DNA of 64,000 nucleotides from assembly GCA_000002445.1 (NCBI GenBank), contig CP000067.1, positions 1,408,001 through 1,472,000 of the forward strand, given 5' to 3'. The notes beneath the pieces were generated by a model, which was given only the letters and a program-made list of their open reading frames with translations, did no database searches and was not told the DNA's origin. The first letter of the stretch is position 1. Each line of letters opens with the position of its first letter. A program made the position numbers and the translations under genes. Below, one piece after another: positions 12,359 to 33,876 of this stretch. The stretch is from Trypanosoma brucei (Eukaryota).

Positions 12359-12656
12359 AGACTTTCCTTTCCTTTTTTCCTTAACTTTAAACCATACAAA
12401 TAACAATAGAGAAAGAGTTCTTCACAGCGATAATAGCAATACCCATTTGATCCGTCGCATGATCTAGTATTCTAGGGAAAACACAAGTTTCTGCCACCTC
12501 ACAACTTTCATGCCAACTGAGAACAGCAAAATTCACAAATTTCGAACATAGGTAACATCGCAGTCGTCGCTTTCCTCCCGCCGTCTTTTTATCAGCTCTT
12601 GTATCCAGGAGTCGGGCTGTCATACGACACTAAAGTGGCCTTTCCTTGCTTCGCGC

Positions 12657-15666: not shown

Positions 15667-16684
15667 TCGTTGGTTCCTCTCGTCTACTCTTTCCTCTGCA
15701 AAGGTCCCCTTCCCACACTGTTGACAAGGTGCAGAGACGATAACTATCTTAACAGAGGGTTTCAAATATGTAATAGTTACGTTGAAAAAGCAAAAAAAAA
15801 AACAATATCGATTTGAGTGAAATAAAATATTAAAAACAGAAAAAAAAGGAGGCAGAGACTAATACTAAAAAGAAAAAAAATACGCAAGGAAGATTACGAA
15901 TATATACACGCGTGACTTCAAGTTCATACCGCCGGCACGCCCCCTTTCACATTGAGTGTACGATGCTTGAATAAAAAATAATACGATTCAAGAAAAAACA
16001 AAAAAAACTGTTGGCGGCAACCGTGCGGGCATCACATGGCGTCTCCACAACAGCGAGAAGAAACGCTTAGGGTTCACCTCATATATGCGAAGAACGTTTA
16101 CATGCCGCGTTGTTTCCTTCCTGTAAAGCACCTTGAGGTGTGGCAGCATAAAGGAAATAAACAGAGAACAACGGTAATGGATACGTCGCTACATTTAAGC
16201 ACACATTTTTTTTTGTGTGTGTGTGGGGGCCGAGGTGGGTCGTTTGGTCCGTAATATACCAGAGGTGTATGCCTTAGGACACGTCTACAGAGTGATTAAT
16301 TCCCTTTAAACTCCTACCGACTGTTTGCGTACTTTCACCAACGATCACACACATAAAATAATAATCAAAGGAATCCTTCACCGAAGAGAATTCACATTGC
16401 ACTGCATGCGATGCCACGAGCCATCAAAAGGGTTGTATGAAGAAACTAACTCATCATTACTAAACCTCCTACCGGCACCAACTGTCATTGAAGTATATCT
16501 GTTGATTCAGCCACAAGATGTCAATCGTCTCTGACTCTTCCACACACGTGCGCACACATGCTTCAAACTAACGCAACCGCACATGCAGAAAAAGAAAGAT
16601 CATGGAGACTATAGGCGTTTCACAGGTAGTTAATAACAAAGCAAACGCATTAGAAATATAATAGCAATACACAACAGAGGGGAA

Positions 16685-16710
16685 ATATATATATATATAT
16701 ATATATATAT
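16685..16710. repeat. (AT)13 microsatellite
   Basis: Read directly from the sequence. Confidence 0.9.
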
Positions 16711-17329
16711 TCTTTTTGCTTCTGGTTACTCATAAAGTTCCGCTCTCAAGTTTACATTACTCCGCACTCATCACATAAAACAATCACGTACGTTACCATC
16801 AAATATATATCAACACCATCTCGTGTAACCGAATGGCGCAGCCACAAATATTACCCACAAGTTCGGTAGACATCAACATCGGAAAGCATCATAAATCAGA
16901 TGGTTTCTTCTACATCATACGGGCGCTCTTCCTCCAACGACAAAAACAAAATGAAAAGAACAAGGGAACAAAAAAGTATGGAGCCACTACAGATTGCAGC
17001 AGTGTAAAAATTTTTAAAAAAAGCAGCAAGGGATATCTAAGAGAAACACTTTCTGAATTAAGCCAAGTGTAGGAAACATAATTATACTACCGCTCCAGCA
17101 CAAATGTGTGCAAAAAAAAAATAAATAAGTAATACAACCATCAAGAAAACTCGTATCCGCTCCGTGGCGCACCAAAACGTTAAAAAAATAAAGGAAGTGG
17201 CAAGACAACCGATCGTAAGTACACAGAAAAGCGTACAATTCACTAATGACCCCCCCCAAAAAAAATAAAACAAAAACAGCCCATTACATGGGTTAGTTAA
17301 AAAATAAAAACAAATGTAATCATCACAAA

Positions 17330-18478
17330 TCAATGCTGAAAACAAGGTAGCGTGCCGCTACCGGGATACAACCATCGAACCGCCGACGGTTTATCTCCTC
17401 CTTCCCCAACAGGAAAGATATCGAACAACTCATTGTAATGTTCCTCACTAACATGGTGTATCACAACAGATTTATTTGAAATGTATTTTCTAACGCTACC
17501 AGGACCCGCATTGTGAAACCGGCACGCTTTCGTATCCACACTTATTAGGTTTCTGTACACTACCTTTTCTCTCAGTATCATTCCAACCATCACATCTTCA
17601 TAGAACATGCCAAGATCAAGAAAGTCAAAATAGTCCCACATAGAAAAGGGCATGTTCACTAGACGCTCAAGAGGTTTATACGAAATGATGGCTTGTGCAG
17701 TGTCCCTGGAGAGAGTAATGCAATATCCGTTCACATATGTAAGTTGGTTACGCCGCCATATCCGGTTATAGTAGTTGTAACGACCCATATACAAACCATG
17801 ACGAGGCATTACACGAAGGTCCGCAAGGTATTTTGGAACACGAATAAATATGTCATCATCACCCTTCACAATGTAACTTACGTTAGGAAACATGTGAAGA
17901 GCAAATCGAAGCCACAAATATGTTTTCCGGCTCATCGCAACCTCAGCCTCAATTCCCCAGTTTCCATTCTCACCAATCTTCTTCCGTGTGGATGGAGAGA
18001 CATCATTTGTTGGTAGTGTAATAATGTCATGTGTACGTGCGGCCTCTTCCTTTAGTGAGTGTGAAATCAAATAACTGTTTGACTGATGTGGTGCGAGAAG
18101 ATATAATGGCAGGAGACTCCCACTAAAGTTGTTTGATCGTGTGGCCACGCCACTATACTTCCAGCATGTCTGTCGCTGCAAGTCACGCCGCCTGCTTCTC
18201 TCACTGTTGTCCACAGAAGGAATTCCAAGGACGGCTAGGAATCTTTGTGCCTTCCACACGGCAGCAACATTAGACGGAACGAACATCAAATATTCATCCT
18301 CGTCTATCGGTTGTGAAACTCCAGCCTGATTTTCATCTAAAAAAGTAGATACCACATGAATTCTATGTAAGTTGCAGCAGATAATCAAGAGTGACATCAC
18401 AAGTAGAAGTATCACTGCTATGTCTGCTGTACGTGGCCTCCTCCTCGCTTGTGTTGGTCGCATCTTCAGCGGTGACAT
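17330..18478 (-). CDS. Type-II membrane glycosyltransferase of the GT31/GT67 family (UDP-Gal/UDP-GlcNAc-dependent beta-1,3 transferase-like). This is the array-edge paralogue with a divergent C-terminal ~70 aa.
   Basis: Starts at the first ATG (MSPLKMRPTQARRRPRTADIAVILLLVMSLLIICCNL), giving a short cytosolic tail and a signal-anchor. It has the 'PNVSYIVKGDDDIFIRV' DxD motif typical of beta3-GalT/GnT and fringe enzymes. The last ~70 aa differ from the other copies but are homologous (…SVDTKACRFHNAGPGSVRKYISNKSVVIHHVSEEHYNELF…). Confidence 0.6.
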   Translation of the reverse strand: MSPLKMRPTQARRRPRTADIAVILLLVMSLLIICCNLHRIHVVSTFLDENQAGVSQPIDEDEYLMFVPSNVAAVWKAQRFLAVLGIPSVDNSERSRRRDLQRQTCWKYSGVATRSNNFSGSLLPLYLLAPHQSNSYLISHSLKEEAARTHDIITLPTNDVSPSTRKKIGENGNWGIEAEVAMSRKTYLWLRFALHMFPNVSYIVKGDDDIFIRVPKYLADLRVMPRHGLYMGRYNYYNRIWRRNQLTYVNGYCITLSRDTAQAIISYKPLERLVNMPFSMWDYFDFLDLGMFYEDVMVGMILREKVVYRNLISVDTKACRFHNAGPGSVRKYISNKSVVIHHVSEEHYNELFDIFPVGEGGDKPSAVRWLYPGSGTLPCFQH

Positions 18479-19034
18479 GTCTACAAAGAAGTTATCGAGG
18501 GAAAAACAATTTAAATTGGCAAATGCGAGAATTCGCGCAGTCGTTAGCAACACAATTAGCTGACAAATTCATGTTCATCACAATTCAATGTAGACCGCTA
18601 TGAAAGAACTCATAAAGGTCGTATGAGGCATGAGGATATACGTCCACGAGGGAGACATTTGAAATCATGAATATCTCAACAGTTATTAAACTTTACAACT
18701 TAAGTAGGACATCCACTCCCAAACTAGGCAATATTTTAAAAGTTACATTTGGGGGAAAGGGACCGTTAATCACGGTTTCGAACGATACCCAAAAACTGTT
18801 CATAACCAAACCTCCCAGTTTTGACCGAAACGAAACGGCGTAACTGTCATGTGATCAACAAATGAGTTCCAAGGAAAAATAATCAACGAACGGTATAGTA
18901 TGCCGTCGGTTATTACACACAGACACACACACACAGAAAGTAACTAAAGTGTTTCAGGAATAGGAGTGACGCTAATACAATCCTAACAAACTATAGGGTG
19001 AGGGATCTCATAGTTCCCAAGCAACCTCAATAAT

Positions 19035-20237
19035 TCAGGCCCTCTTACGCCAAAAGGGAAAAGAAGGTAGGATTTCTCTTTTCCGTCCAAGTCGGAATTC
19101 ACACTGCATCGCCGCCCAATTGCTATTCAACCACATTAGCTTTGAGGGTGCCGGTGGTATTACACCTTCAGGAAAGTAGTCCATTAACATTTCGTAATCG
19201 GCTTCCTGTATGTGGTGTATCACAACAGACATGTTCCTAACGCTCTTCTTCACACCAAACTTGCCCGCATTGTGAAAGTGACAACGACCCATCTCCACAC
19301 TTATTAGGTTTCTGTACACTACCTTTTCTCTCAGTATCATTCCAACCATCACATCTTCATAGAACATGCCAAGATCAAGAAAGTCAAAATAGTCCCACAT
19401 AGAAAAGGGCATGTTCACTAGACGCTCAAGAGGTTTATACGAGATGATGGCTTGTGCAGTGTCCCTGGAGAGAGTAATGCAATATCCGTTCACATATGTA
19501 AGTTGGTTACGCCGCCATATCCGGTTATAGTAGTTGTAACGACCCATATACAAACCATGACGAGGCATTACACGAAGGTCCGCAAGGTATTTTGGAACAC
19601 GAATAAATATGTCATCATCACCCTTCACAATGTAACTTACGTTAGGAAACATGTGAAGAGCAAACCGAAGCCACAAATATGTTTTCCGACTCATCGCAAC
19701 CTCAGCCTCAATTCCCCAGTTTCCATTCTCACCAATCTTCTTCCGTGTGGATGGAGAGACATCATTTGTTGGTAGTGTAATAATGTCATGTGTACGTGCG
19801 GCCTCTTCCTTTAGTGAGTGTGAAATCAAATAACTGTTTGACTGATGTGGTGCGAGAAGATATAATGGCAGGAGACTCCCACTAAAGTTGTTTGATCGTG
19901 TGGCCACGCCACTATACTTCCAGCATGTCTGTCGCTGCAAGTCACGCCGCCTGCTTCTCTCACTGTTGTCCACAGAAGGAATTCCAAGGACGGCTAGGAA
20001 TCTTTGTGCCTTCCACACGGCAGCAACATTAGACGGAACGAACATCAAATATTCATCTTCGTCTATCGGTTGTGAAACTCCAGCCTGATTTTCATCTAAA
20101 AAAGTAGATACCACATGAATTCTATGTAAGTTGCAGCAGATAATCAAGAGTGACATCACAAGTAGAAGTATCACTGCTATGTCTGCTGTACGTGGCCTCC
20201 TCCTCGCTTGTGTTGGTCGCATCTTCAGCGGTGACAT
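19035..20237 (-). CDS. GT31/GT67-like type-II glycosyltransferase, array copy 2 (400 aa from the first ATG; subtype V/D/Y)
   Basis: Same evidence as above. Variant residues are HRIHVVSTF / IDEDEY / LPLYLL. Confidence 0.6.
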   Translation of the reverse strand: MSPLKMRPTQARRRPRTADIAVILLLVMSLLIICCNLHRIHVVSTFLDENQAGVSQPIDEDEYLMFVPSNVAAVWKAQRFLAVLGIPSVDNSERSRRRDLQRQTCWKYSGVATRSNNFSGSLLPLYLLAPHQSNSYLISHSLKEEAARTHDIITLPTNDVSPSTRKKIGENGNWGIEAEVAMSRKTYLWLRFALHMFPNVSYIVKGDDDIFIRVPKYLADLRVMPRHGLYMGRYNYYNRIWRRNQLTYVNGYCITLSRDTAQAIISYKPLERLVNMPFSMWDYFDFLDLGMFYEDVMVGMILREKVVYRNLISVEMGRCHFHNAGKFGVKKSVRNMSVVIHHIQEADYEMLMDYFPEGVIPPAPSKLMWLNSNWAAMQCEFRLGRKREILPSFPFWRKRA

Positions 20238-20793
20238 GTCTACAAAGAAGTTATCGAGGGAAAAACAATTTAAATTGGCAAATGCGAGAATTCGCGCAGT
20301 TGTTAGAAACACAATTAGCTGACAAATTCATGTTCATCACAATTCAATGTAGACCGCTATGAAAGAACTCATAAAGGTCGTATGAGGCATGAGGATATAC
20401 GTCCACGAGGGAGACATTTGAAATCATGAATATCTCAACAGTTATTAAACTTTACAACTTAAGTAGGACATCCACTCCCAAACTAGGCAATATTTTAAAA
20501 GTTACATTTGGGGGAAAGGGACCGTTAATCACGGTTTCGAACGATACCCAAAAACTGTTCATAACCAAACCTCCCAGTTTTGACCGAAACGAAACGGCGT
20601 AACTGTCATGTGATCAACAAATGAGTTCCAAGGAAAAATAATCAACGAACGGTATAGTATGCCGTCGGTTATTACACACAGACACACACACACAGAAAGT
20701 AACTAAAGTGTTTCAGGAATAGGAGTGACGCTAATACAATCCTAACAAACTATAGGGTGAGGGATCTCATAGTTCCCAAGCAACCTCAATAAT

Positions 20794-21996
20794 TCAGGCC
20801 CTCTTACGCCAAAAGGGAAAAGAAGGTAGGATTTCTCTTTTCCGTCCAAGTCGGAATTCACACTGCATCGCCGCCCAATTGCTATTCAACCACATTAGCT
20901 TTGAGGGTGCCGGTGGTATTACACCTTCAGGAAAGTAGTCCATTAACATTTCGTAATCGGCTTCCTGTATGTGGTGTATCACAACAGACATGTTCCTAAC
21001 GCTCTTCTTCACACCAAACTTGCCCGCATTGTGAAAGTGACAACGACCCATCTCCACACTTATTAGGTTTCTGTACACTACCTTTTCTCTCAGTATCATT
21101 CCAACCATCACATCTTCATAGAACATGCCAAGATCAAGAAAGTCAAAATAGTCCCACATAGAAAAGGGCATGTTCACTAGACGCTCAAGAGGTTTATACG
21201 AAATGATGGCTTGTGCAGTGTCCCTGGAGAGAGTAATGCAATATCCGTTCACATATGTAAGTTGGTTACGCCGCCATATCCGGTTATAGTAGTTGTAACG
21301 ACCCATATACAAACCATGACGAGGCATTACACGAAGGTCCGCAAGGTATTTTGGAACACGAATAAATATGTCATCATCACCCTTCACAATGTAACTTACG
21401 TTAGGAAACATGTGAAGAGCAAACCGAAGCCACAAATATGTTTTCCGACTCATCGCAACCTCAGCCTCAATTCCCCAGTTTCCATTCTCACCAATCTTCT
21501 TCCGTGTGGATGGAGAGACATCATTTGTTGGTAGTGTAATAATGTCATGTGTACGTGCGGCCTCTTCCTTTAGTGAGTGTGAAATCAAATAACTGTTTGA
21601 CTGATGTGGTGCGAGAAGACATAATGGCAGGAGACTCCCACTAAAGTTGTTTGATCGTGTGGCCACGCCACTATACTTCCAGCATGTCTGTCGCTGCAAG
21701 TCACGCCGCCTGCTTCTCTCACTGTTGTCCACAGAAGGAATTCCAAGGACGGCTAGGAACCTTTGTGCCTTCCACACGGCAGCAACATTAGACGGAACGA
21801 ACATCAAATATTCACCTTCGTCTATCGGTTGTGAAACTCCAGCCTGATTTTCATCTAAAAAAGTAGATACCTCATGAATTCTATGTAAGTTGCAGCAGAT
21901 AATCAAGAGTGACATCACAAGTAGAAGTATCACTGCTATGTCTGCTGTACGTGGCCTCCTCCTCGCTTGTGTTGGTCGCATCTTCAGCGGTGACAT
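20794..21996 (-). CDS. GT31/GT67-like type-II glycosyltransferase, array copy 3 (subtype E/G/C)
   Basis: Identical to copy 2 except for the linked substitutions HRIHEVSTF / IDEGEY / LPLCLL. Confidence 0.6.
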   Translation of the reverse strand: MSPLKMRPTQARRRPRTADIAVILLLVMSLLIICCNLHRIHEVSTFLDENQAGVSQPIDEGEYLMFVPSNVAAVWKAQRFLAVLGIPSVDNSERSRRRDLQRQTCWKYSGVATRSNNFSGSLLPLCLLAPHQSNSYLISHSLKEEAARTHDIITLPTNDVSPSTRKKIGENGNWGIEAEVAMSRKTYLWLRFALHMFPNVSYIVKGDDDIFIRVPKYLADLRVMPRHGLYMGRYNYYNRIWRRNQLTYVNGYCITLSRDTAQAIISYKPLERLVNMPFSMWDYFDFLDLGMFYEDVMVGMILREKVVYRNLISVEMGRCHFHNAGKFGVKKSVRNMSVVIHHIQEADYEMLMDYFPEGVIPPAPSKLMWLNSNWAAMQCEFRLGRKREILPSFPFWRKRA

Positions 21997-22552
21997 GTCT
22001 ACAAAGAAGTTATCGAGGGAAAAACAATTTAAATTGGCAAATGCGAGAATTCGCGCAGTTGTTAGAAACACAATTAGCTGACAAATTCATGTTCATCACA
22101 ATTCAATGTAGACCGCTATGAAAGAACTCATAAAGGTCGTATGAGGCATGAGGATATACGTCCACGAGGGAGACATTTGAAATCATGAATATCTCAACAG
22201 TTATTAAACTTTACAACTTAAGTAGGACATCCACTCCCAAACTAGGCAATATTTTAAAAGTTACATTTGGGGGAAAGGGACCGTTAATCACGGTTTCGAA
22301 CGATACCCAAAAACTGTTCATAACCAAACCTCCCAGTTTTGACCGAAACGAAACGGCGTAACTGTCATGTGATCAACAAATGAGTTCCAAGGAAAAATAA
22401 TCAACGAACGGTATAGTATGCCGTCGGTTATTACACACAGACACACACACACAGAAAGTAACTAAAGTGTTTCAGGAATAGGAGTGACGCTAATACAATC
22501 CTAACAAACTATAGGGTGAGGGATCTCATAGTTCCCAAGCAACCTCAATAAT

Positions 22553-23755
22553 TCAGGCCCTCTTACGCCAAAAGGGAAAAGAAGGTAGGATTTCTCTTTT
22601 CCGTCCAAGTCGGAATTCACACTGCATCGCTGCCCAATTGCTATTCAACCACATTAGCTTTGAGGGTGCCGGTGGTATTACACCTTCAGGAAAGTAGTCC
22701 ATTAACATTTCGTAATCGGCTTCCTGTATGTGGTGTATCACAACAGACATGTTCCTAACGCTCTTCTTCACACCAAACTTGCCCGCATTGTGAAAGTGAC
22801 AACGACCCATCTCCACACTTATTAGGTTTCTGTACACTACCTTTTCTCTCAGTATCATTCCAACCATCACATCTTCATAGAACATGCCAAGATCAAGAAA
22901 GTCAAAATAGTCCCACATAGAAAAGGGCATGTTCACTAGACGCTCAAGAGGTTTATACGAAATGATGGCTTGTGCAGTGTCCCTGGAGAGAGTAATGCAA
23001 TATCCGTTCACATATGTAAGTTGGTTACGCCGCCATATCCGGTTATAGTAGTTGTAACGACCCATATACAAACCATGACGAGGCATTACACGAAGGTCCG
23101 CAAGGTATTTTGGAACACGAATAAATATGTCATCATCACCCTTCACAATGTAACTTACGTTAGGAAACATGTGAAGAGCAAACCGAAGCCACAAATATGT
23201 TTTCCGACTCATCGCAACCTCAGCCTCAATTCCCCAGTTTCCATTCTCACCAATCTTCTTCCGTGTGGATGGAGAGACATCATTTGTTGGTAGTGTAATA
23301 ATGTCATGTGTACGTGCGGCCTCTTCCTTTAGTGAGTGTGAAATCAAATAACTGTTTGACTGATGTGGTGCGAGAAGACATAATGGCAGGAGACTCCCAC
23401 TAAAGTTGTTTGATCGTGTGGCCACGCCACTATACTTCCAGCATGTCTGTCGCTGCAAGTCACGCCGCCTGCTTCTCTCACTGTTGTCCACAGAAGGAAT
23501 TCCAAGGACGGCTAGGAACCTTTGTGCCTTCCACACGGCAGCAACATTAGACGGAACGAACATCAAATATTCACCTTCGTCTATCGGTTGTGAAACTCCA
23601 GCCTGATTTTCATCTAAAAAAGTAGATACCTCATGAATTCTATGTAAGTTGCAGCAGATAATCAAGAGTGACATCACAAGTAGAAGTATCACTGCTATGT
23701 CTGCTGTACGTGGCCTCCTCCTCGCTTGTGTTGGTCGCATCTTCAGCGGTGACAT
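22553..23755 (-). CDS. GT31/GT67-like type-II glycosyltransferase, array copy 4 (subtype E/G/C)
   Basis: Shares the three linked substitutions of copy 3. Confidence 0.6.
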   Translation of the reverse strand: MSPLKMRPTQARRRPRTADIAVILLLVMSLLIICCNLHRIHEVSTFLDENQAGVSQPIDEGEYLMFVPSNVAAVWKAQRFLAVLGIPSVDNSERSRRRDLQRQTCWKYSGVATRSNNFSGSLLPLCLLAPHQSNSYLISHSLKEEAARTHDIITLPTNDVSPSTRKKIGENGNWGIEAEVAMSRKTYLWLRFALHMFPNVSYIVKGDDDIFIRVPKYLADLRVMPRHGLYMGRYNYYNRIWRRNQLTYVNGYCITLSRDTAQAIISYKPLERLVNMPFSMWDYFDFLDLGMFYEDVMVGMILREKVVYRNLISVEMGRCHFHNAGKFGVKKSVRNMSVVIHHIQEADYEMLMDYFPEGVIPPAPSKLMWLNSNWAAMQCEFRLGRKREILPSFPFWRKRA

Positions 23756-24311
23756 GTCTACAAAGAAGTTATCGACGGAAAAACAATTTAAATTGGCAAA
23801 TGCGAGAATTCGCGCAGTTGTTAGAAACACAATTAGCTGACAAATTCATGTTCATCACAATTCAATGTAGACCGCTATGAAAGAACTCATAAAGGTCGTA
23901 TGAGGCATGAGGATATACGTCCACGAGGGAGACATTTGAAATCATGAATATCTCAACAGTTATTAAACTTTACAACTTAAGTAGGACATCCACTCCCAAA
24001 CTAGGCAATATTTTAAAAGTTACATTTGGGGGAAAGGGACCGTTAATCACGGTTTCGAACGATACCCAAAAACTGTTCATAACCAAACCTCCCAGTTTTG
24101 ACCGAAACGAAACGGCGTAACTGTCATGTGATCAACAAATGAGTTCCAAGGAAAAATAATCAACGAACGGTATAGTATGCCGTCGGTTATTACACACAGA
24201 CACACACAAACAGAAAGTAACTAAAGTGTTTCAGGAATAGGAGTGACGCTAATACAATCCTAACAAACTATAGGGTGAGGGATCTCATAGTTCCCAAGCA
24301 ACCTCAATAAT

Positions 24312-25514
24312 TCAGGCCCTCTTACGCCAAAAGGGAAAAGAAGGTAGGATTTCTCTTTTCCGTCCAAGTCGGAATTCACACTGCATCGCTGCCCAATTGC
24401 TATTCAACCACATTAGCTTTGAGGGTGCCGGTGGTATTACACCTTCAGGAAAGTAGTCCATTAACATTTCGTAATCGGCTTCCTGTATGTGGTGTATCAC
24501 AACAGACATGTTCCTAACGCTCTTCTTCACACCAAACTTGCCCGCATTGTGAAAGTGACAACGACCCATCTCCACACTTATTAGGTTTCTGTACACTACC
24601 TTTTCTCTCAGTATCATTCCAACCATCACATCTTCATAGAACATGCCAAGATCAAGAAAGTCAAAATAGTCCCACATAGAAAAGGGCATGTTCACTAGAC
24701 GCTCAAGAGGTTTATACGAAATGATGGCTTGTGCAGTGTCCCTGGAGAGAGTAATGCAATATCCGTTCACATATGTAAGTTGGTTACGCCGCCATATCCG
24801 GTTATAGTAGTTGTAACGACCCATATACAAACCATGACGAGGCATTACACGAAGGTCCGCAAGGTATTTTGGAACACGAATAAATATGTCATCATCACCC
24901 TTCACAATGTAACTTACGTTAGGAAACATGTAAAGAGCAAACCGAAGCCACAAATATGTTTTCCGACTCATCGCAACCTCAGCCTCAATTCCCCAGTTTC
25001 CATTCTCACCAATCTTCTTCCGTGTGGATGGAGAGACATCATTTGTTGGTAGTGTAATAATGTCATGTGTACGTGCGGCCTCTTCCTTTAGTGAATGTGA
25101 AATCAAATAACTGTTTGACTGATGTGGTGCGAGAAGATATAATGGCAGGAGACTCCCACTAAAGTTGTTTGATCGTGTGGCCACGCCACTATACTTCCAG
25201 CATGTCTGTCGCTGCAAGTCACGCCGCCTGCTTCTCTCACTGTTGTCCACAGAAGGAATTCCAAGGACGGCTAGGAATCTTTGTGCCTTCCACACGGCAG
25301 CAACATTAGACGGAACGAACATCAAATATTCATCTTCGTCTATCGGTTGTGAAACTCCAGCCTGATTTTCATCTAAAAAAGTAGATACCACATGAATTCT
25401 ATGTAAGTTGCAGCAGATAATCAAGAGTGACATCACAAGTAGAAGTATCACTGCTATGTCTGCTGTACGTGGCCTCCTCCTCGCTTGTGTTGGTCGCATC
25501 TTCAGCGGTGACAT
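24312..25514 (-). CDS. GT31/GT67-like type-II glycosyltransferase, array copy 5 (subtype V/D/Y with a private H->Y change, FALYMFPN)
   Basis: As for copy 2, plus one private substitution. Confidence 0.6.
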   Translation of the reverse strand: MSPLKMRPTQARRRPRTADIAVILLLVMSLLIICCNLHRIHVVSTFLDENQAGVSQPIDEDEYLMFVPSNVAAVWKAQRFLAVLGIPSVDNSERSRRRDLQRQTCWKYSGVATRSNNFSGSLLPLYLLAPHQSNSYLISHSLKEEAARTHDIITLPTNDVSPSTRKKIGENGNWGIEAEVAMSRKTYLWLRFALYMFPNVSYIVKGDDDIFIRVPKYLADLRVMPRHGLYMGRYNYYNRIWRRNQLTYVNGYCITLSRDTAQAIISYKPLERLVNMPFSMWDYFDFLDLGMFYEDVMVGMILREKVVYRNLISVEMGRCHFHNAGKFGVKKSVRNMSVVIHHIQEADYEMLMDYFPEGVIPPAPSKLMWLNSNWAAMQCEFRLGRKREILPSFPFWRKRA

Positions 25515-26070
25515 GTCTACAAAGAAGTTATCGAGGGAAAAACAATTTAAATTGGCAAATGCGAGAATTCGCGCAGTTGTTAGAAACACAATTAGCTGAC
25601 AAATTCATGTTCATCACAATTCAATGTAGACCGCTATGAAAGAACTCATAAAGGTCGTATGAGGCATGAGGATATACGTCCACGAGGGAGACATTTGAAA
25701 TCATGAATATCTCAACAGTTATTAAACTTTACAACTTAAGTAGGACATCCACTCCCAAACTAGGCAATATTTTAAAAGTTACATTTGGGGGAAAGGGACC
25801 GTTAATCACGGTTTCGAACGATACCCAAAAACTGTTCATAACCAAACCTCCCAGTTTTGACCGAAACGAAACGGCGTAACTGTCATGTGATCAACAAATG
25901 AGTTCCAAGGAAAAATAATCAACGAACGGTATAGTATGCCGTCGGTTATTACACACAGACACACACAAACAGAAAGTAACTAAAGTGTTTCAGGAATAGG
26001 AGTGACGCTAATACAATCCTAACAAACTATAGGGTGAGGGATCTCATAGTTCCCAAGCAACCTCAATAAT

Positions 26071-27273
26071 TCAGGCCCTCTTACGCCAAAAGGGAAAAGA
26101 AGGTAGGATTTCTCTTTTCCGTCCAAGTCGGAATTCACACTGCATCGCTGCCCAATTGCTATTCAACCACATTAGCTTTGAGGGTGCCGGTGGTATTACA
26201 CCTTCAGGAAAGTAGTCCATTAACATTTCGTAATCGGCTTCCTGTATGTGGTGTATCACAACAGACATGTTCCTAACGCTCTTCTTCACACCAAACTTGC
26301 CCGCATTGTGAAAGTGACAACGACCCATCTCCACACTTATTAGGTTTCTGTACACTACCTTTTCTCTCAGTATCATTCCAACCATCACATCTTCATAGAA
26401 CATGCCAAGATCAAGAAAGTCAAAATAGTCCCACATAGAAAAGGGCATGTTCACTAGACGCTCAAGAGGTTTATACGAAATGATGGCTTGTGCAGTGTCC
26501 CTGGAGAGAGTAATGCAATATCCGTTCACATATGTAAGTTGGTTACGCCGCCATATCCGGTTATAGTAGTTGTAACGACCCATATACAAACCATGACGAG
26601 GCATTACACGAAGGTCCGCAAGGTATTTTGGAACACGAATAAATATGTCATCATCACCCTTCACAATGTAACTTACGTTAGGAAACATGTGAAGAGCAAA
26701 CCGAAGCCACAAATATGTTTTCCGACTCATCGCAACCTCAGCCTCAATTCCCCAGTTTCCATTCTCACCAATCTTCTTCCGTGTGGATGGAGAGACATCA
26801 TTTGTTGGTAGTGTAATAATGTCATGTGTACGTGCGGCCTCTTCCTTTAGTGAGTGTGAAATCAAATAACTGTTTGACTGATGTGGTGCGAGAAGATATA
26901 ATGGCAGGAGACTCCCACTAAAGTTGTTTGATCGTGTGGCCACGCCACTATACTTCCAGCATGTCTGTCGCTGCAAGTCACGCCGCCTGCTTCTCTCACT
27001 GTTGTCCACAGAAGGAATTCCAAGGACGGCTAGGAACCTTTGTGCCTTCCACACGGCAGCAACATTAGACGGAACGAACATCAAATATTCATCTTCGTCT
27101 ATCGGTTGTGAAACTCCAGCCTGATTTTCATCTAAAAAAGTAGATACCACATGAATTCTATGTAAGTTGCAGCAGATAATCAAGAGTGACATCACAAGTA
27201 GAAGTATCACTGCTATGTCTGCTGTACGTGGCCTCCTCCTCGCTTGTGTTGGTCGCATCTTCAGCGGTGACAT
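26071..27273 (-). CDS. GT31/GT67-like type-II glycosyltransferase, array copy 6 (subtype V/D/Y)
   Basis: Protein identical to copy 2. Confidence 0.6.
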   Translation of the reverse strand: MSPLKMRPTQARRRPRTADIAVILLLVMSLLIICCNLHRIHVVSTFLDENQAGVSQPIDEDEYLMFVPSNVAAVWKAQRFLAVLGIPSVDNSERSRRRDLQRQTCWKYSGVATRSNNFSGSLLPLYLLAPHQSNSYLISHSLKEEAARTHDIITLPTNDVSPSTRKKIGENGNWGIEAEVAMSRKTYLWLRFALHMFPNVSYIVKGDDDIFIRVPKYLADLRVMPRHGLYMGRYNYYNRIWRRNQLTYVNGYCITLSRDTAQAIISYKPLERLVNMPFSMWDYFDFLDLGMFYEDVMVGMILREKVVYRNLISVEMGRCHFHNAGKFGVKKSVRNMSVVIHHIQEADYEMLMDYFPEGVIPPAPSKLMWLNSNWAAMQCEFRLGRKREILPSFPFWRKRA

Positions 27274-27829
27274 GTCTACAAAGAAGTTATCGAGGGAAAA
27301 ACAATTTAAATTGGCAAATGCGAGAATTCGCGCAGTTGTTAGAAACACAATTAGCTGACAAATTCATGTTCATCACAATTCAATGTAGACCGCTATGAAA
27401 GAACTCATAAAGGTCGTATGAGGCATGAGGATATACGTCCACGAGGGAGACATTTGAAATCATGAATATCTCAACAGTTATTAAACTTTACAACTTAAGT
27501 AGGACATCCACTCCCAAACTAGGCAATATTTTAAAAGTTACATTTGGGGGAAAGGGACCGTTAATCACGGTTTCGAACGATACCCAAAAACTGTTCATAA
27601 CCAAACCTCCCAGTTTTGACCGAAACGAAACGGCGTAACTGTCATGTGATCAACAAATGAGTTCCAAGGAAAAATAATCAACGAACGGTATAGTATGCCG
27701 TCGGTTATTACACACAGACACACACAAACAGAAAGTAACTAAAGTGTTTCAGGAATAGGAGTGACGCTAATACAATCCTAACAAACTATAGGGTGAGGGA
27801 TCTCATAGTTCCCAAGCAACCTCAATAAT

Positions 27830-28840
27830 TCAGGCCCTCTTACGCCAAAAGGGAAAAGAAGGTAGGATTTCTCTTTTCCGTCCAAGTCGGAATTCACACT
27901 GCATCGCTGCCCAATTGCTATTCAACCACATTAGCTTTGAGGGTGCCGGTGGTATTACACCTTCAGGAAAGTAGTCCATTAACATTTCGTAATCGGCTTC
28001 CTGTATGTGGTGTATCACAACAGACATGTTCCTAACGCTCTTCTTCACACCAAACTTGCCCGCATTGTGAAAGTGACAACGACCCATCTCCACACTTATT
28101 AGGTTTCTGTACACTACCTTTTCTCTCAGTATCATTCCAACCATCACATCTTCATAGAACATGCCAAGATCAAGAAAGTCAAAATAGTCCCACATAGAAA
28201 AGGGCATGTTCACTAGACGCTCAAGAGGTTTATACGAAATGATGGCTTGTGCAGTGTCCCTGGAGAGAGTAATGCAATATCCGTTCACATATGTAAGTTG
28301 GTTACGCCGCCATATCCGGTTATAGTAGTTGTAACGACCCATATACAAACCATGACGAGGCATTACACGAAGGTCCGCAAGGTATTTTGGAACACGAATA
28401 AATATGTCATCATCACCCTTCACAATGTAACTTACGTTAGGAAACATGTGAAGAGCAAACCGAAGCCACAAATATGTTTTCCGACTCATCGCAACCTCAG
28501 CCTCAATTCCCCAGTTTCCATTCTCACCAATCTTCTTCCGTGTGGATGGAGAGACATCATTTGTTGGTAGTGTAATAATGTCATGTGTACGTGCGGCCTC
28601 TTCCTTTAGTGAGTGTGAAATCAAATAACTGTTTGACTGATGTGGTGCGAGAAGATATAATGGCAGGAGACTCCCACTAAAGTTGTTTGATCGTGTGGCC
28701 ACGCCACTATACTTCCAGCATGTCTGTCGCTGCAAGTCACGCCGCCTGCTTCTCTCACTGTTGTCCACAGAAGGAATTCCAAGGACGGCTAGGAATCTTT
28801 GTGCCTTCCACACGGCAGCAACATTAGACGGAACGAACAT
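27830..28840 (-). pseudogene. 5'-truncated terminal copy of the glycosyltransferase array. It lacks the cytosolic tail, the signal-anchor and ~64 N-terminal residues, so it is probably a relic.
   Basis: Similarity to the repeat unit stops at ~28852. The unit reads …catcttcgtctatcggttgtg… whereas this copy reads …catccttttattaaaaaatg…. The remaining ORF (336 aa, MFVPSNVAAV…) has no N-terminal hydrophobic anchor. Confidence 0.6.
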
Positions 28841-31800
28841 CAAATATTCATCCTTTTATTAAAAAATGTGTTTGTCCTTTGAGTTTCATGTAAAAAAAAA
28901 AAGAAAGACGATGACACCGTTTTTCGTAGTTGATTGTAGTGCTCCGCCATTTTCTGCAGTCTTTATTTTTGCGAAAGGGCCTTGACGGTGCCGCCTTGTT
29001 ACGTAACGCTTTTATAAAGTTCGATGTGTAAGTTTCGTTTGTGCCTACTGTTGTTTTTAGTTAAAAAAAAAAGTTATGAGAGTTGAGTGGTAACTGGTAC
29101 GACCCCTTTATTATTAGCAGGTAAAGAAAAGGCATGTTTTTTTCTTCTATTTTTTTTGTTAAACAAACCCGAACATGGTGTTAATTATGACAAATTTTCA
29201 CATATGCGGTGTGGTCGCACGATCGATCCCACAACTACCAGGCCGTGAAGGAGAAGGAGACGTTAACATCGTAAGAATATGTGTTGTTGCATTATTTATT
29301 TTTCAAAGAAATAATGGCGATTCCCCCCATAGTTACAGTTGGCTTTTGTGATTCACCCCTCACATTCACTTTTATGTACCCGATGTGCCATAAAGGTGGG
29401 ACGAATATTCATTAATTTGAAAAGTTTGTGCATGGCATATTCGACATCAAACCCTTCTTTTTTTTAAAAAAAAAACAACATCTTCCGATATGTTAATGTT
29501 AATGCTAATTTTCATTTTCATATTTTATTTTTTAAGTTGAGATGCGTTCGACGTGAATTGTTCCTCCCTCCTGCGCTAACTTTGGAGAATGTTTTGAGTA
29601 CTTTTGGAGTGTTCAGCACTTCACTGACATTCGCGGAGCATATATATATATATATTTTTTTTTTTTTATAAGAAAAAAAAAGCGCCAACTGTGGACCCCG
29701 CACTGTTTTTGCACTTCGTTCATCCGCTTTTCCATTTAAAATTCACTAATTAGAAATTTCACATAAGTCACCGGCTCTCCTTCACACGATGTAAATTTCG
29801 GTATGGCGTGGCGTGGCGTGCAGGCGTAATATTTTTTTTCCTCATTCAGTAATACATACATGAGTGCACACAAGCAAACGTATATTTTATTTTATTTTAT
29901 ATGCGAACTGTAACTCGAGACTATCTCAAGCACGAGAATATGAGGAACCTCGGTGCCTTCGCTTCCTTTTTTTTTTTATTCCCCAATAATTCTTTTGCTA
30001 TATCATGTTGTGTCACTTCCTCCTTATCTTTTTACATATGGTCGCATGGTGACAAAAAGTTTTGTAGGGAACGAATTTTTTTTTTTTTAAACAGAAGAAA
30101 AGAAAAGGAAAAAAGAAAAAGAAAAGAATGGGAAGTGACACAAGCGTCAGTTTGTACATAAAAGTTCCACGGAGGTGCGGGGGCGATATGTTAACATCAG
30201 TTCATACATTTCATAAGTGTTTTTTTTTTAGCATCGGTCCATTCATTCAATCCAGTATCAGAAAGCGAGGTAAAGATAAAGATGAAGATGAAGAAAGAAA
30301 AAAAAAGAAAAAAAAAAGAAAAAAGAATAGGGGAAGGTGGGAAGAAAAGCGGCAGCAAACTGGCGAATGGCGCGTCACTTCATTCAAGCGGATAAAATTC
30401 TCTTTTCTTATTTTGTTTTGTGTTTTTTGTTTTTGTTTTTAAAACTGTTATTAATACTTTTTCTTTACTTTACTCTTCTTTTTTACTTTATTTTATTTTG
30501 GTTCTGCTCCCCACAATATTCACCACAGTGAAGAGAAGAACACACACAAACACAAAAGAAAAAAGAAAAGAAAAGGAGACAAGAGGAGGCATTTATTTTC
30601 CTCTTTCCCTTCAGTTACGTACCGGAGGTGCAAACAAGGCGAAAAAGAAATGAAAAAAAGTATCACAATTGGCATGAAGGAACAACAACAACAAAAAAAA
30701 TTTTTAAAAAAAAGAAGAAGAAAAGGCGAATGAAAGTTTTTTTTTAAAAAAAAAGAAGAAAAAAAAGAAAAAAAAAGAGGAGGGGACAATCCACTGGGGA
30801 ATAAACAACAAAACTTACGATAGGAGAGTAAAAATAAAAAAATGAAAAAAAAGCAGAGGGTGGACATGGACAAGAGAGCGATGAATAAATTTTTTTTTAA
30901 AGAAAAAACGTGTAGAGACAATAATAATAATAATAACAATAATAGTGATTAATAACAGTATGGGGCGGGAAGAGAACCGACGGCCAAAAAGAAAAAAAAA
31001 CAAAAAACAAAAACACATGGAAACAAAAAGAAAAAAAAAGGAAAAAAGAAAAGCGAACAATCGTTTGCATAAGTTGACGTTGCATTTCATTATGCGTTCA
31101 CTACTTTTATCGTTTGCAACACTTACGCACGTCCCTGTTTCTTTTAGTCTCTTTTTTTTTAAAAAAAAAAAGAAAGAAGCGTTGCTGAGAAATATTTAAT
31201 TTACACTTCAGTAAGCAAGCGAACAAACAAAAGAAAAAAAATAACAGTAAAAGTACCATTAAATGATATCAATAATAATAATAACAATAACAATCTGATA
31301 TGATATGATATGATAACATACCAATGATAATAGCAATGATAATAAATATAAACAAAAAAATTTAAAAAGAAATTCATTGTCACCCCACTTATTTTCTTTC
31401 TATATCGTTCAATTTCTTATCACTTTCTTTTTTTTTGTTTCGTTTCTGTTGCCGCTTTCTTTTGTTTTCTTTTTTTTTTTGTTATTTCAGATCCTCCGAC
31501 GCAACTGCCAGTCTGGCGCTACATTTTCTTCAATTCCTCATCCTTTTTTGGTGTCAGACCTCGCTACTTTTTAACTTCGCCTCGCAAACTCCCACTAGCT
31601 ATTCATCTTTATTTATTTTTATTTTATTTATTTTATTTTCTTTTCGCCTCAAACGTCTCTTCGGGTTTCCACTCCTTCCTCTTCTATAAATAAATATAAA
31701 TATAAATAAAAATATATAAATATATAAATATATAAATTCTCTTCAGTGGAATAACCAAGCAGCAGATATTGAAGTTAATACATACCCTGACGGCCCCCAT

Positions 31801-32146
31801 ATACCCGCACACATATAAATATAAATAAATAAATAAATAATATAAATATAATGATGGAACAAGTGAAGTAAAGAAACAAACAAACAAACAAGAAAAGAAA
31901 CGACAGCTAAACGCACAATAAAAATCGCAACAAAAAAAAAAAGAAGAAAAGAGACGTCCATTTGCTTCACCACTTCGTTTCCCCTCCTTTCTTTTCTTTT
32001 TTCCTTTTCTTTTCCTCTTTTTTTTTTTCGGTGTGGTGGGGGGTGGGGAGGTTTATTTGACTTGACGTAACGGAGGAAAAAAAAAACAATGCGGGAACAA
32101 CTTCACGTGTACTTTGTCAAAAATATTTGAGGGTACAACGACGACA

Positions 32147-32199
<53 letters not shown>
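32147..32199. repeat. (AAT)17 trinucleotide microsatellite
   Basis: Read directly from the sequence. It produces a spurious poly-Leu ORF on the minus strand. Confidence 0.9.
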
Positions 32200-32205
<6 letters not shown>

Positions 32206-33140
32206 CAAAACGCAGCAGCTAAATGAAGTATGAAACGAGCCGAAACAAACCAAACCGAACCGAAACAACAACAACAACAACACCATCAATAACTGTAACT
32301 ATAACTATATAATAATAATAGTAATATCAACAAAAATAATAAACAATAATAGTTGTAACAGAAACATTGATATTGAGGTCGTTTTGGATCAACCGAAACA
32401 AAACATAACAACAAAAAAAAAGACAGAAAAGTAGACATATATGAACGCACCTATCGCATGTGAGTTCAGTGCTTTGAATATTTAATGGGTTCAGTTTCTG
32501 CAATTTACTTTCCTCATTTTATTCATACAAAAAAAAAAAATGTCTTTCCATTCGAATTTTTTTTCTATTTTCTTCCTTTATGATTACTCCTACATTTACA
32601 ATTTACCTTTAACTTTTTCTTTCTGTTGTTGTTTCTAAGCTTCAGTTGATTGACTTCTTCATCTCGATACACCGTTTCTTGTTGTTGTTGTTTTCCCCCC
32701 TCTTCCTCTCCTATTCCTTTCCCTTTCCCTTTTCCTTTCCCTTTTCCTCTTACTTTTACAATTATTATTATTAATATTATTATTATTCCTCATTTCCCTA
32801 TATATATATATATATATATATTGTTCCTTCCTGCAGTATTAGCCACACGTTCGAATCACTTTCATCTCTAATTTCATTGGTTTTTCATTTCCCCCCCCCG
32901 CCCGCCGCCTCTCGCCGTTTCTTTTTTTTTTCCTTTTTTCTTTAAATTTCCTAACTTAAATTTTCGTTGTTTAACGGTGTTTATCTTTTTTTTCTTTTCC
33001 TTTCTTTTTCTTCTTAAAATTTATATTCACCTCCTTCTTTCGCTAAGTTGCTAAAAGTAAGTGAAGTGTCACAGACTCGACAGGCGGGTCTCTCCCTTTT
33101 TTTCTTTTTTTTTTGTTTTTCCATTCGCTTCTCTCTGATA

Positions 33141-33200
33141 ACAAACAAACACGCACAAACACGCACAAACACGCACAAACACGCAAACACGCACAAACGC
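33141..33200. repeat. Imperfect (ACGCACAAAC)n minisatellite of ~5 units
   Basis: Read directly from the sequence. It produces the spurious 'VCACLCVFVRV' ORFs. Confidence 0.85.
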
Positions 33201-33876
33201 AAAAAAAAAAAAAACAGACAAATACAAAATCTGCCATGTATATTTTCTAATATCATCTTCACTTAATATAAACAAAATCAATTTTCCAAAGACGTTCTTT
33301 TCTTTATTTCAAATTCTTACTCTTTTTTTTCTTTTTCTTTTTTTTTTTGAAAAAAAAAAAATCGATCTGCTTTCGTTCTGTTCTGCATCACGGTTTGTTT
33401 GTTTGTTTGTTTTTTACGTGTCATGTACATTTTCTTTACTTCTGTAAAATTTCGCCACACCTCATGCTTTGACAAGCCAAGTTACCTCTCTTTCTCGCTC
33501 CCTTTCTTTCTGCTTCCATTCGAAACAGTTAAAAAAAACAATTCCGCAAACTGCACTTCAACAAGTTCATGTTGCCTTCCAGTTCATCCTAACACTATAA
33601 TCACCCATTCTTCTTTTTTACCGTTTCATTATCTCTTTTTTTTCTTCTTCTTTTGTTTGCTTTTTTGTGTGTTTGTGCAGAGAAGAAGAAGAAAAAACAA
33701 ACAAAAGAGATCGGTTCTACAGTGGTTTGTTACCCCCACTTCACTTCAACCGTACACCACCCAATTCAATCATTACACAAAACATCAACACTAAGGAAAA
33801 GCAAAAACAAAAACAAAAACAAGAACAAACAAAAAGAAAAAAAGGAAAAGGAAAAGGAAAAAAAAAAAGAAATTTG

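What the first reader, a model, noticed from the sequence alone, without database searches (positions are those of the whole stretch)
17330..28852. Seven-member head-to-tail array of a DDD-motif type-II glycosyltransferase with an exact 1759-bp period and two interleaved subtypes
Six start-to-start intervals are identical to the base (1759 bp), so the units have been homogenised recently. The proteins are not identical, though. Copies 3 and 4 share three linked substitutions (V->E, D->G, Y->C) that copies 1, 2, 5, 6 and 7 lack, and copy 5 has a private H->Y change. That pattern fits a two-unit block duplication or patchy gene conversion rather than simple stepwise divergence. The family (GT31/GT67-like, with a short cytosolic tail, a signal anchor and the PNVSYIVKGDDDIFIRV motif) makes surface glycans in trypanosomatids. 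A high-copy array therefore implies dosage amplification of one specific transferase activity. Copy number is likely to vary between strains, and arrays of this kind are often collapsed in assemblies.
Basis: partly seen in the sequence, partly recalled or inferred. Interest (0 to 1): 0.65.

Follow-up and report, generated by a model that had tools for sequence, protein, structure and literature searches.

The report
Known trypanosome glycosyltransferase tandem gene array
This is the already annotated and published seven-gene tandem array of GT67 glycosyltransferase genes (Tb927.4.5240 to Tb927.4.5300, apparently the TbGT2 sub-family) on chromosome 4 of Trypanosoma brucei, so it is real but ordinary, and what the enzyme does is still unknown.

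Summary
The repeat is real. Window 17535-28852 holds 6.43 head-to-tail units of exactly 1759 bp with no indels, and adjacent units are 99.7% identical. All genes are on the minus strand. The three linked changes in copies 3 and 4 (V42E, D61G, Y126C) and the H195Y change in copy 5 are confirmed.

- Only five copies are complete 400-aa genes.
- The first transcribed copy is cut at codon 61 and has no membrane anchor.
- The last copy is a chimera, with a sharp switch at 17535/17534 to an old, divergent C-terminus and a unique 3' flank.

The two subtypes are adjacent, not interleaved.

The proteins match T. brucei brucei TREU927 XP_844672-844678 exactly. The array is described in the literature: seven tandem copies, a distinct 3'UTR on the last gene, procyclic-biased protein, GT67 lineage 7.

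Motifs, Pfam and an AlphaFold/Foldseek match to human GT31 beta3-transferases support an inverting, Golgi type-II, UDP-sugar-dependent transferase. Donor and acceptor are untested.

Marker sites violate the four-gamete test. Subspecies-specific changes are shared by all copies. Both observations indicate concerted evolution.

Verdict: already known, low interest.

The parts
17535..28852 (-). Homogenised tandem repeat: 6.43 units of exactly 1759 bp. Each unit holds a 1203-bp CDS and a 556-bp spacer.
   Evidence: Lag-1759 identity profile and mismatch list. Seven in-register copies.
27830..28840 (-). First transcribed copy, 5'-truncated (336 aa, XP_844678; Tb927.4.5300 by position in the array). 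Homology starts at codon 61. It has no cytosolic tail and no TM anchor.
   Evidence: Junction alignment. Exact protein match P0028. The same junction is present in the T. b. gambiense and T. equiperdum loci.
26071..27273 (-). The protein is identical to copy 2. It shares the synonymous R79 AGG codon with copies 3 and 4.
24312..25514 (-). It carries a private H195Y change and a private synonymous H140 change.
22553..23755 (-). E42/G61/C126 subtype on derived flanking markers, with a private 5'UTR change 21 nt upstream of the ATG.
20794..21996 (-). E42/G61/C126 subtype on ancestral flanking markers.
19035..20237 (-).
17330..18478 (-). Last transcribed copy, a chimera (382 aa, XP_844672; Tb927.4.5240 as the last gene of the array). 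About 335 codons are homogenised with the array. The last ~47 codons are an old, divergent short C-terminus.
   Evidence: Sharp identity break at 17535/17534. Tail identity is 44%. Veitch 2010 identifies the last gene as Tb927.4.5240 and reports its different 3'UTR.
15766..17329 (-). Unique 3' flank and 3'UTR region of the last copy, unrelated to the array spacer.
   Evidence: Lag-1759 identity falls to background below about 17400. Literature report of a different 3'UTR and different stage regulation.
20238..20793 (-). One example of the 556-bp inter-CDS spacer (3'UTR, intergenic, 5'UTR), present six times. It contains a (TG)n tract and pyrimidine-rich stretches.
   Evidence: Sequence read. 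Only 4 variable sites among all spacer copies.
28853..33876 (.). 5-kb AT-rich, low-complexity, non-coding stretch between the upstream NEK-like kinase gene and the truncated first copy. It forms the upstream boundary of the array.
   Evidence: GC 27-36%. Only low-complexity ORFs. About 93% identity to sister subspecies, against 98-99% in the flanks.

Best explanation
[quoted passage not shown] The literature names them Tb927.4.5240-5300, and they are very probably the seven-gene TbGT2 sub-family of GT67 lineage 7.

Each full unit encodes a 400-aa type-II membrane protein. It has an Arg-rich cytosolic tail, one signal-anchor helix, a stem, and a GT-A catalytic domain with a DDD metal/UDP-binding motif. 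By homology it is an inverting, UDP-sugar-dependent beta-glycosyltransferase of the Golgi that elaborates GPI-anchor side chains and/or N-glycans. The donor and acceptor are not known. The only published proposal is a beta1-4 galactosyltransferase for procyclin GPI side chains.

The array lies inside one minus-strand polycistronic unit. Its units are kept almost identical by unequal crossing-over and gene conversion. The two ends escape this:
- The first copy is a 5'-truncated relic.
- The last copy keeps an older C-terminus and its own 3'UTR, which published data link to different stage regulation.

The E42/G61/C126 subtype is a derived variant. It was spread to a neighbouring unit by conversion or recombination.
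For: Shown here:
- Exact protein identity to XP_844672-844678 on a 1,590,432-bp T. brucei TREU927 contig.
- The 1759-bp period, with 99.7% identity between adjacent units.
- A Pfam Galactosyl_T hit of 28.2 bits against a cut-off of 23.
- W174-G175, K205/D207-D209 and E294-D295 are invariant in 22 family members. These correspond to the published GT67 motifs.
- The strongest hydrophobic window is residues 17-35, after RRRPR. The model has a helix at 16-50.
- An AlphaFold model with pLDDT 80 matches human B3GalT5, B3GNT2 and B3GalT6 at E of about 1e-12 to 1e-11. The profile also hits B3GNT2 by sequence.
- Concerted evolution. T. b. gambiense and T. equiperdum carry V/D/Y, so E/G/C is derived. 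At offsets 993 and 741 both of their copies share one state and all TREU927 copies share the other. Four-gamete violations occur between the core tract and flank sites 78 and 1656.

From the literature:
- Seven tandem copies. The last gene has a different 3'UTR and is up in procyclics (PMC2837033).
- Lineage 7, with procyclic-biased protein (PMC5853035).
- GT67 family, and a seven-gene TbGT2 sub-family with a postulated beta1-4 GalT role (PMC9472816).
- A paralogue on chromosome 8, Tb927.8.7140 (PMC2212663).
- Proximity labelling by the BiPN bait, which preferentially labels known Golgi proteins, detects Tb927.4.5240 (bioRxiv 10.64898/2026.04.03.716285).
Against: No enzymology or knockout exists for these genes, so sugar donor, linkage and acceptor are inferred only.

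The equation of 'TbGT2 (seven closely related genes)' with this array rests on gene count, lineage and procyclic expression. I could not read a gene-ID table.

Peptides are shared by nearly all copies, so proteomics cannot say which copies are expressed.

Transcript data disagree in part. Veitch 2010 found only the last gene up in procyclics and the others about 3-fold up in bloodstream forms, which was not significant.

Copy number comes from one Sanger-era diploid reference. Allelic differences could have been assembled as differences between copies.
Confidence: 0.93

Rival explanations
1. The seven-copy structure is partly an assembly construct. The true array has a different number of units, and some 'inter-copy' variants are really differences between the two homologous chromosomes of the diploid TREU927 clone.
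For: The derived/ancestral flank haplotype switches once, exactly between copies 3 and 4. This is the pattern a join of two allelic assemblies could give. Two other assemblies show only 1.43 units with the same end junctions, so assemblers handle this locus poorly. The T. equiperdum assembly had only about 7,500 PacBio reads and was reference-guided.
Against: Every one of the seven units has a distinct haplotype, and the period is exact. A naive duplication artefact would not give this. The seven genes have stayed in the annotation and literature since 2005-2010. No read data were available to test depth.
Confidence: 0.12
2. The array is not a simple dosage amplification. It is diversifying: the E42/G61/C126 units, the H195Y unit, the chimeric last gene and the anchor-less first gene are functionally distinct isoforms, differing in specificity, regulation or localisation.
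For: Four of the 11 coding variants are non-synonymous. Y126 is invariant in 22 family members, and D61 is conserved among African-trypanosome members. The last gene has a different C-terminus and 3'UTR and different published stage regulation.
Against: There are too few substitutions for any selection test. Changing an invariant core-strand residue is more likely damaging than adaptive. Pereira and Jackson found no positive selection in this lineage. The first copy lacks the signal anchor and so cannot reach the Golgi lumen.
Confidence: 0.15
3. The near-identity reflects a very recent burst of unit duplication in the TREU927 lineage, starting from a two-gene state like that in the T. b. gambiense and T. 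equiperdum assemblies, rather than long-term homogenisation of an old array.
For: Both sister assemblies hold exactly the truncated copy plus the chimeric last copy, with identical junctions. Divergence within the array (0-0.5%) is below the TREU927-to-gambiense divergence of about 0.7%.
Against: 1.43 units is exactly what a collapsed assembly of a longer array would give, and the assembly methods make collapse likely. A Logan short-read contig from another sample also ends inside the repeat.
Confidence: 0.25

Closest known systems
Tb927.4.5240-Tb927.4.5300, T. brucei TREU927 chromosome 4 (GT67 lineage 7; apparently TbGT2a-g)
   Same: It is the same locus. All seven predicted proteins are exact matches. 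The gene count, tandem layout and distinct 3'UTR of the last gene agree with PMC2837033.
   Different: Nothing differs. This work adds a per-site variant map, the exact end junctions (28852/28853 and 17535/17534), polarisation of the E/G/C subtype as derived, and the observation that Y126C hits an invariant residue.
TbGT3 (Tb927.2.3370), the only characterised lineage-7 GT67 enzyme: UDP-Gal:betaGlcNAc-GPI beta1-3 galactosyltransferase
   Same: Same CAZy family and lineage. By homology, the same type-II architecture and motif set.
   Different: TbGT3 is a single-copy gene elsewhere in the genome, and its activity has been measured. The array genes have no measured activity, and a different linkage (beta1-4) has been postulated for them.
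Tb927.8.7140 and neighbours, the chromosome 8 duplicon paralogues
   Same: 52% identical (P0005). Part of the chr4/chr8 duplication. In T. b. gambiense the chr8 locus has a long-tail gene, then a short-tail gene, then a fragment. That is the same order of C-terminal types as on chr4.
   Different: Only two or three genes, not amplified. The coding and non-coding sequence is strongly diverged from chr4.
Human GT31 beta3-glycosyltransferases (B3GalT5 8zwp, B3GNT2 7jhl/6wmm, B3GalT6 9sp7)
   Same: GT-A fold, DxD-type motif, and type-II Golgi topology (the topology of the human enzymes is from general knowledge). Foldseek E of about 1e-12 to 1e-11, probability 1.0.
   Different: Only 15-20% identity and TM-scores of 0.45-0.68. 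CAZy places the trypanosome enzymes in a separate family, GT67, whose members have taken over GT13, GT14, GT16, GT31 and GT49 roles.
T. brucei phosphoglycerate kinase and hexose-transporter tandem arrays
   Same: Head-to-tail genes in one polycistron are homogenised by gene conversion. Copies are regulated differently through distinct 3'UTRs.
   Different: Different gene families with fewer copies. In the PGK array, the copies have well-established different products and localisations.

Membership tests
CAZy GT67 / beta3-glycosyltransferase superfamily | WG motif (counterpart of (I/L)RXXWG) | tested here: met
   W174-G175 are invariant in the 22-sequence alignment A1. The motif definition is from PMC9472816.
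CAZy GT67 / beta3-glycosyltransferase superfamily | Y(I,V,F)XKXDDD metal/UDP-binding motif | tested here: met
   YIVKGDDD is present in all seven copies. K205 and D207-D209 are invariant.
CAZy GT67 / beta3-glycosyltransferase superfamily | ED(A/V/I/L/M)(M/L)X(G/A) motif | tested here: met
   EDVMVG is present. E294-D295 are invariant.
CAZy GT67 / beta3-glycosyltransferase superfamily | GT-A fold related to GT31 | tested here: met
   AlphaFold model with pLDDT 80.1 and pTM 0.78. The top Foldseek PDB hits are B3GalT5, B3GNT2, B3GalT6, C1GalT1 and Manic Fringe. Pfam Galactosyl_T scores 28.2 bits against a cut-off of 23.
CAZy GT67 / beta3-glycosyltransferase superfamily | Type-II topology: short cytosolic tail and a single N-terminal signal anchor | tested here: met
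   Met for six of the seven copies. The best 19-aa hydrophobic window is residues 17-35 (mean KD 2.68) after RRRPR, and the model has a helix at 16-50. Not met for the first transcribed copy, which starts at residue 65.
CAZy GT67 / beta3-glycosyltransferase superfamily | [quoted passage not shown] | not testable with these tools
No published enzymology for these genes was found.
Tb927.4.5240-5300 array (apparently the TbGT2 sub-family) | Sequence identity to the annotated T. brucei TREU927 chromosome 4 genes | tested here: met
   100% matches: P0001 (XP_844673/77), P0026 (XP_844674/75), P0025 (XP_844676), P0030 (XP_844672) and P0028 (XP_844678).
Tb927.4.5240-5300 array (apparently the TbGT2 sub-family) | The name TbGT2 applies to these gene IDs | tested here: inconclusive
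   PMC9472816 says TbGT2 is lineage 7, has seven closely related genes and is procyclic-biased. PMC5853035 gives the same properties for Tb927.4.5240-5290. The gene-ID table is in a figure that was not held, and no supplement text was available.
Tandem gene array under concerted evolution | Same-strand, head-to-tail, near-identical units including the spacers | tested here: met
   Exact 1759-bp period. Pairwise differences are 1-11 per 764-1759 compared positions, and there are no indels.
Tandem gene array under concerted evolution | Copies within a genome share changes that distinguish them from the copies in a sister taxon | tested here: met
   At offsets 993 and 741, all TREU927 copies carry one state and both copies in T. 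b. gambiense and T. equiperdum carry the other.
Tandem gene array under concerted evolution | Evidence of exchange between units (mosaic haplotypes) | tested here: met
   All four gametes are present for the core tract (826/1021/1078) against flank sites 78 and 1656. The synonymous 966G is shared by copies 3, 4 and 6. Caveat: there are few sites, and an allelic mis-join is not excluded.

The most novel reading that the evidence does not exclude
The array may be a set of regulatory and functional isoforms rather than a pure dosage block. The last gene, with its own C-terminus and 3'UTR, would supply the procyclic-stage enzyme. The internal copies would serve another stage. The E42/G61/C126 pair, with a change at family-invariant Y126, would be a variant of altered or lost activity now being spread by gene conversion. 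The anchor-less first copy would be expressed as a soluble non-Golgi protein from the pyrimidine tract and AG that sit exactly at its truncation junction.
Probability: 0.1. Interest if true: 0.35.

Novelty: already known. Interest (0 to 1): 0.12.

Why it matters
[quoted passage not shown] This seven-gene array is the largest block of them. It is the published candidate for the missing procyclic beta1-4 galactosyltransferase.

The existence, family and layout of the array are not new. This check adds some practical detail:
- exact unit boundaries and a per-copy variant map, useful for designing whole-array deletions or copy-specific assays;
- a warning that two of the seven annotated genes are structurally aberrant;
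- a warning that two more carry a substitution at an invariant residue.

Tried and rejected
1. An exact-sequence look-up of contigs encoding the 400-aa protein returned nothing. I reached sister-subspecies loci through the 382-aa protein instead.
2. I wanted to use the 1.43-unit state in T. b. gambiense DAL972 and T. equiperdum IVM-t1 as evidence of copy-number variation. I rejected this because the IVM-t1 assembly rests on MiSeq reads plus only about 7,500 PacBio reads and was ordered against TREU927. Collapse is just as likely.
3. I considered whether a retroelement insertion truncated the first copy. The 5 kb upstream is AT-rich and low-complexity, and its only ORFs are low-complexity. This idea has no support, but I did not test it against element libraries.
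4. I considered whether the long and short C-termini are two clearly separate ancient classes. Pairwise tail identities are all 33-51% and do not separate cleanly. Only two things support the idea: the extension beyond the conserved Cys (about 21-29 aa), and the same gene order on chr8. I keep it as a weak inference.
5. My first ungapped comparison with the outgroup 'last' copies was out of register because of indels. I redid it with MAFFT.
6. Rfam and tRNA scans of the whole window found nothing.
7. The supplement of the TbGT10 paper that should list gene IDs was not held.
Full report
**Observation**

The ORF listing shows seven minus-strand ORFs between 17330 and 28843. Their ends are spaced exactly 1759 bp apart, and the repeat finder places seven in-register copies at spacings of 1759 x 6.

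A lag-1759 self-comparison gives about 25% identity outside the region. Identity is 98-100% from about 17535 to 27093, so the repeat runs from 17535 to 28852. Only 25 of 9558 lagged positions differ, and there are no indels. The array is therefore 6.43 units long, not seven.

The true start codon is the ATG of MSPLKMRPTQ.... That gives a 1203-bp CDS (400 aa) and a 556-bp spacer per unit.

**Variants**

There are 15 variable sites among the units. Codon mapping gives:
- Four non-synonymous changes: V42E, D61G and Y126C in the copies at 20794 and 22553, and H195Y in the copy at 24312.
- Seven synonymous changes.
- Four non-coding changes.

The E/G/C units are neighbours, though, not interleaved with the other type.

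**Array ends**

In transcription order the first copy (27830-28840) is homologous only from codon 61. Immediately upstream lies unrelated sequence with a T-rich tract and an AG at the junction. The longest in-frame product starts at Met65 and has no membrane anchor.

The last copy (17330-18478) is identical to the array down to 17535. It then switches abruptly to a sequence that is still in frame and homologous, but only about 44% identical at protein level. It ends in a shorter C-terminus and is followed by an unrelated 3' flank.

**Identity**

The 400-aa protein matches a T. brucei brucei TREU927 protein at 100%, on a 1,590,432-bp contig. [quoted passage not shown]

The neighbouring genes are all on the minus strand, as expected for one trypanosome polycistron. 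They include an FG nucleoporin of the Nup54 type, kinases, PP4R3 and CFAP43.

**What the literature already says**

- Veitch et al. 2010 state that there are seven tandemly repeated copies. [quoted passage not shown]
- Pereira and Jackson 2018 place Tb927.4.5240-5290 in UGT lineage 7. They report procyclic-biased protein and induction during differentiation (PMC5853035).
- Duncan and Ferguson 2022 define the GT67 family and its motifs. [quoted passage not shown] They postulate that it supplies the missing beta1-4 galactosyltransferase for GPI side chains, and say this is untested (PMC9472816).
- Jackson 2007 lists Tb927.4.5240/5300 as paralogues of Tb927.8.7140 in the chr4/chr8 duplicon (PMC2212663).
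- A 2026 preprint detects Tb927.4.5240 by proximity labelling with the BiPN bait, which preferentially labels known Golgi proteins.

**Family tests**

- Pfam Galactosyl_T passes its cut-off, 28.2 against 23 bits.
- In a 22-sequence alignment of Trypanosoma homologues, the WG, KxDDD and ED motifs are invariant.
- An AlphaFold model (pLDDT 80, pTM 0.78) has an N-terminal helix at 16-50 followed by an alpha/beta domain.
- Foldseek against the PDB gives human B3GalT5, B3GNT2 and B3GalT6 at E of about 1e-12 to 1e-11, then C1GalT1 and Manic Fringe.
- The profile also finds B3GNT2 by sequence.
- The strongest hydrophobic window is residues 17-35, after an RRRPR stretch.

Type-II, GT-A, beta3GT-like and GT67 are therefore all supported. 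The catalytic specificity cannot be tested here.

**How the array evolves**

The syntenic loci of T. b. gambiense DAL972 (L002) and T. equiperdum IVM-t1 (L001) contain only the truncated copy plus the chimeric last copy. Both have the same two junctions as the window.

A MAFFT alignment shows three things:
- Both outgroups carry V42, D61, Y126 and the A state at offset 966. The E/G/C haplotype is therefore derived.
- At offsets 993 and 741, every TREU927 copy has one base and both copies in each outgroup have the other. This is the signature of concerted evolution or of recent amplification from one unit.
- The last copy keeps ancestral states at offsets 654 and 1272 that all the other TREU927 copies have lost, as expected for an edge copy.

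Within TREU927, flank sites 78 and 1656 are ancestral in copies 1-3 and derived in copies 4-7. The E/G/C core sits on one unit of each kind. All four combinations are therefore present, and at least one conversion or crossover is required. The synonymous 966G is also found in copy 6.

Y126 is invariant across the family alignment, and D61 is conserved among African-trypanosome members. The E/G/C form may therefore be impaired. This is an inference.

**Origin**

In T. b. gambiense the chr8 paralogous locus has a 396-aa gene with a long C-terminal extension. A 376-aa gene ending at the conserved Cys follows, and then a fragment. Chr4 has the same order, long-tail copies followed by the short-tail last gene.

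This suggests that the pre-duplication locus already held two tandem genes, and that on chr4 the 5' roughly 335 codons of the second gene were overwritten by the first. Tail identities of 33-51% do not separate the two types cleanly, so this remains a weak inference.

**Limits**

The copy number rests on one reference. The sister assemblies cannot be used to infer variation, because IVM-t1 was mostly short-read and reference-ordered. An allelic mis-join in the diploid TREU927 assembly could mimic part of the haplotype pattern.

**Verdict**

The locus is already annotated and discussed, and its biochemical role is still open. Novelty: already known. Interest: low.

Noticed in passing
window 11411-12266 (inside minus-strand ORF 10433-12406): A 36-bp tandem repeat of 23.8 copies at 95% match encodes 12-aa AGANTATTGGFG (FG-type) repeats. 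The C-terminal part of the protein matches Pfam Nup54, so this is an FG nucleoporin. The orthologues in T. b. gambiense and T. equiperdum are 725 and 718 aa, which suggests that repeat number varies.
   Followed up: partly
window 28853-33876: A 5-kb AT-rich (GC 27-36%), low-complexity stretch with no credible ORF lies between a kinase gene and the array. It is only about 93% identical to the sister subspecies, against 98-99% in the flanking genes. It has not been explained; it could be a long UTR, decayed sequence or something else.
   Followed up: partly
L003 1-3543 (Logan assembly of run ERR7929157): A short contig joins a glycosyltransferase unit to unrelated DNA 7 nt after the ATG. The unrelated DNA carries a PPR-like ORF on the opposite strand. 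The junction differs from the one in the window. It could be another genomic copy, an engineered line or a chimeric contig.
   Followed up: partly
L004 6317-10759 (T. b. gambiense chromosome 8): The paralogous chr8 locus holds a 396-aa long-tail gene, a 376-aa short-tail gene and a 237-aa fragment. The two full genes share a near-identical central region but differ at both ends. This parallels the edge effects seen in the chr4 array.
   Followed up: partly
window 28853-28890 (minus strand, just upstream of the truncated copy): A run of T's and an AG dinucleotide sit exactly at the truncation junction, followed by a 3-codon out-of-frame uORF before the in-frame Met65. This could act as a trans-splice acceptor, so the anchor-less copy might still be expressed.
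   Followed up: no
window 20680-20700 and the equivalent position in each unit: A (TG)n microsatellite in the spacer has the same length in all six spacer copies. Slippage-prone tracts usually vary in length, so this points to very recent homogenisation.
   Followed up: no
window 1-64000: Almost all long ORFs with Pfam support are on the minus strand, which fits a single polycistronic unit. No Rfam family and no tRNA were detected anywhere in the window.
   Followed up: yes
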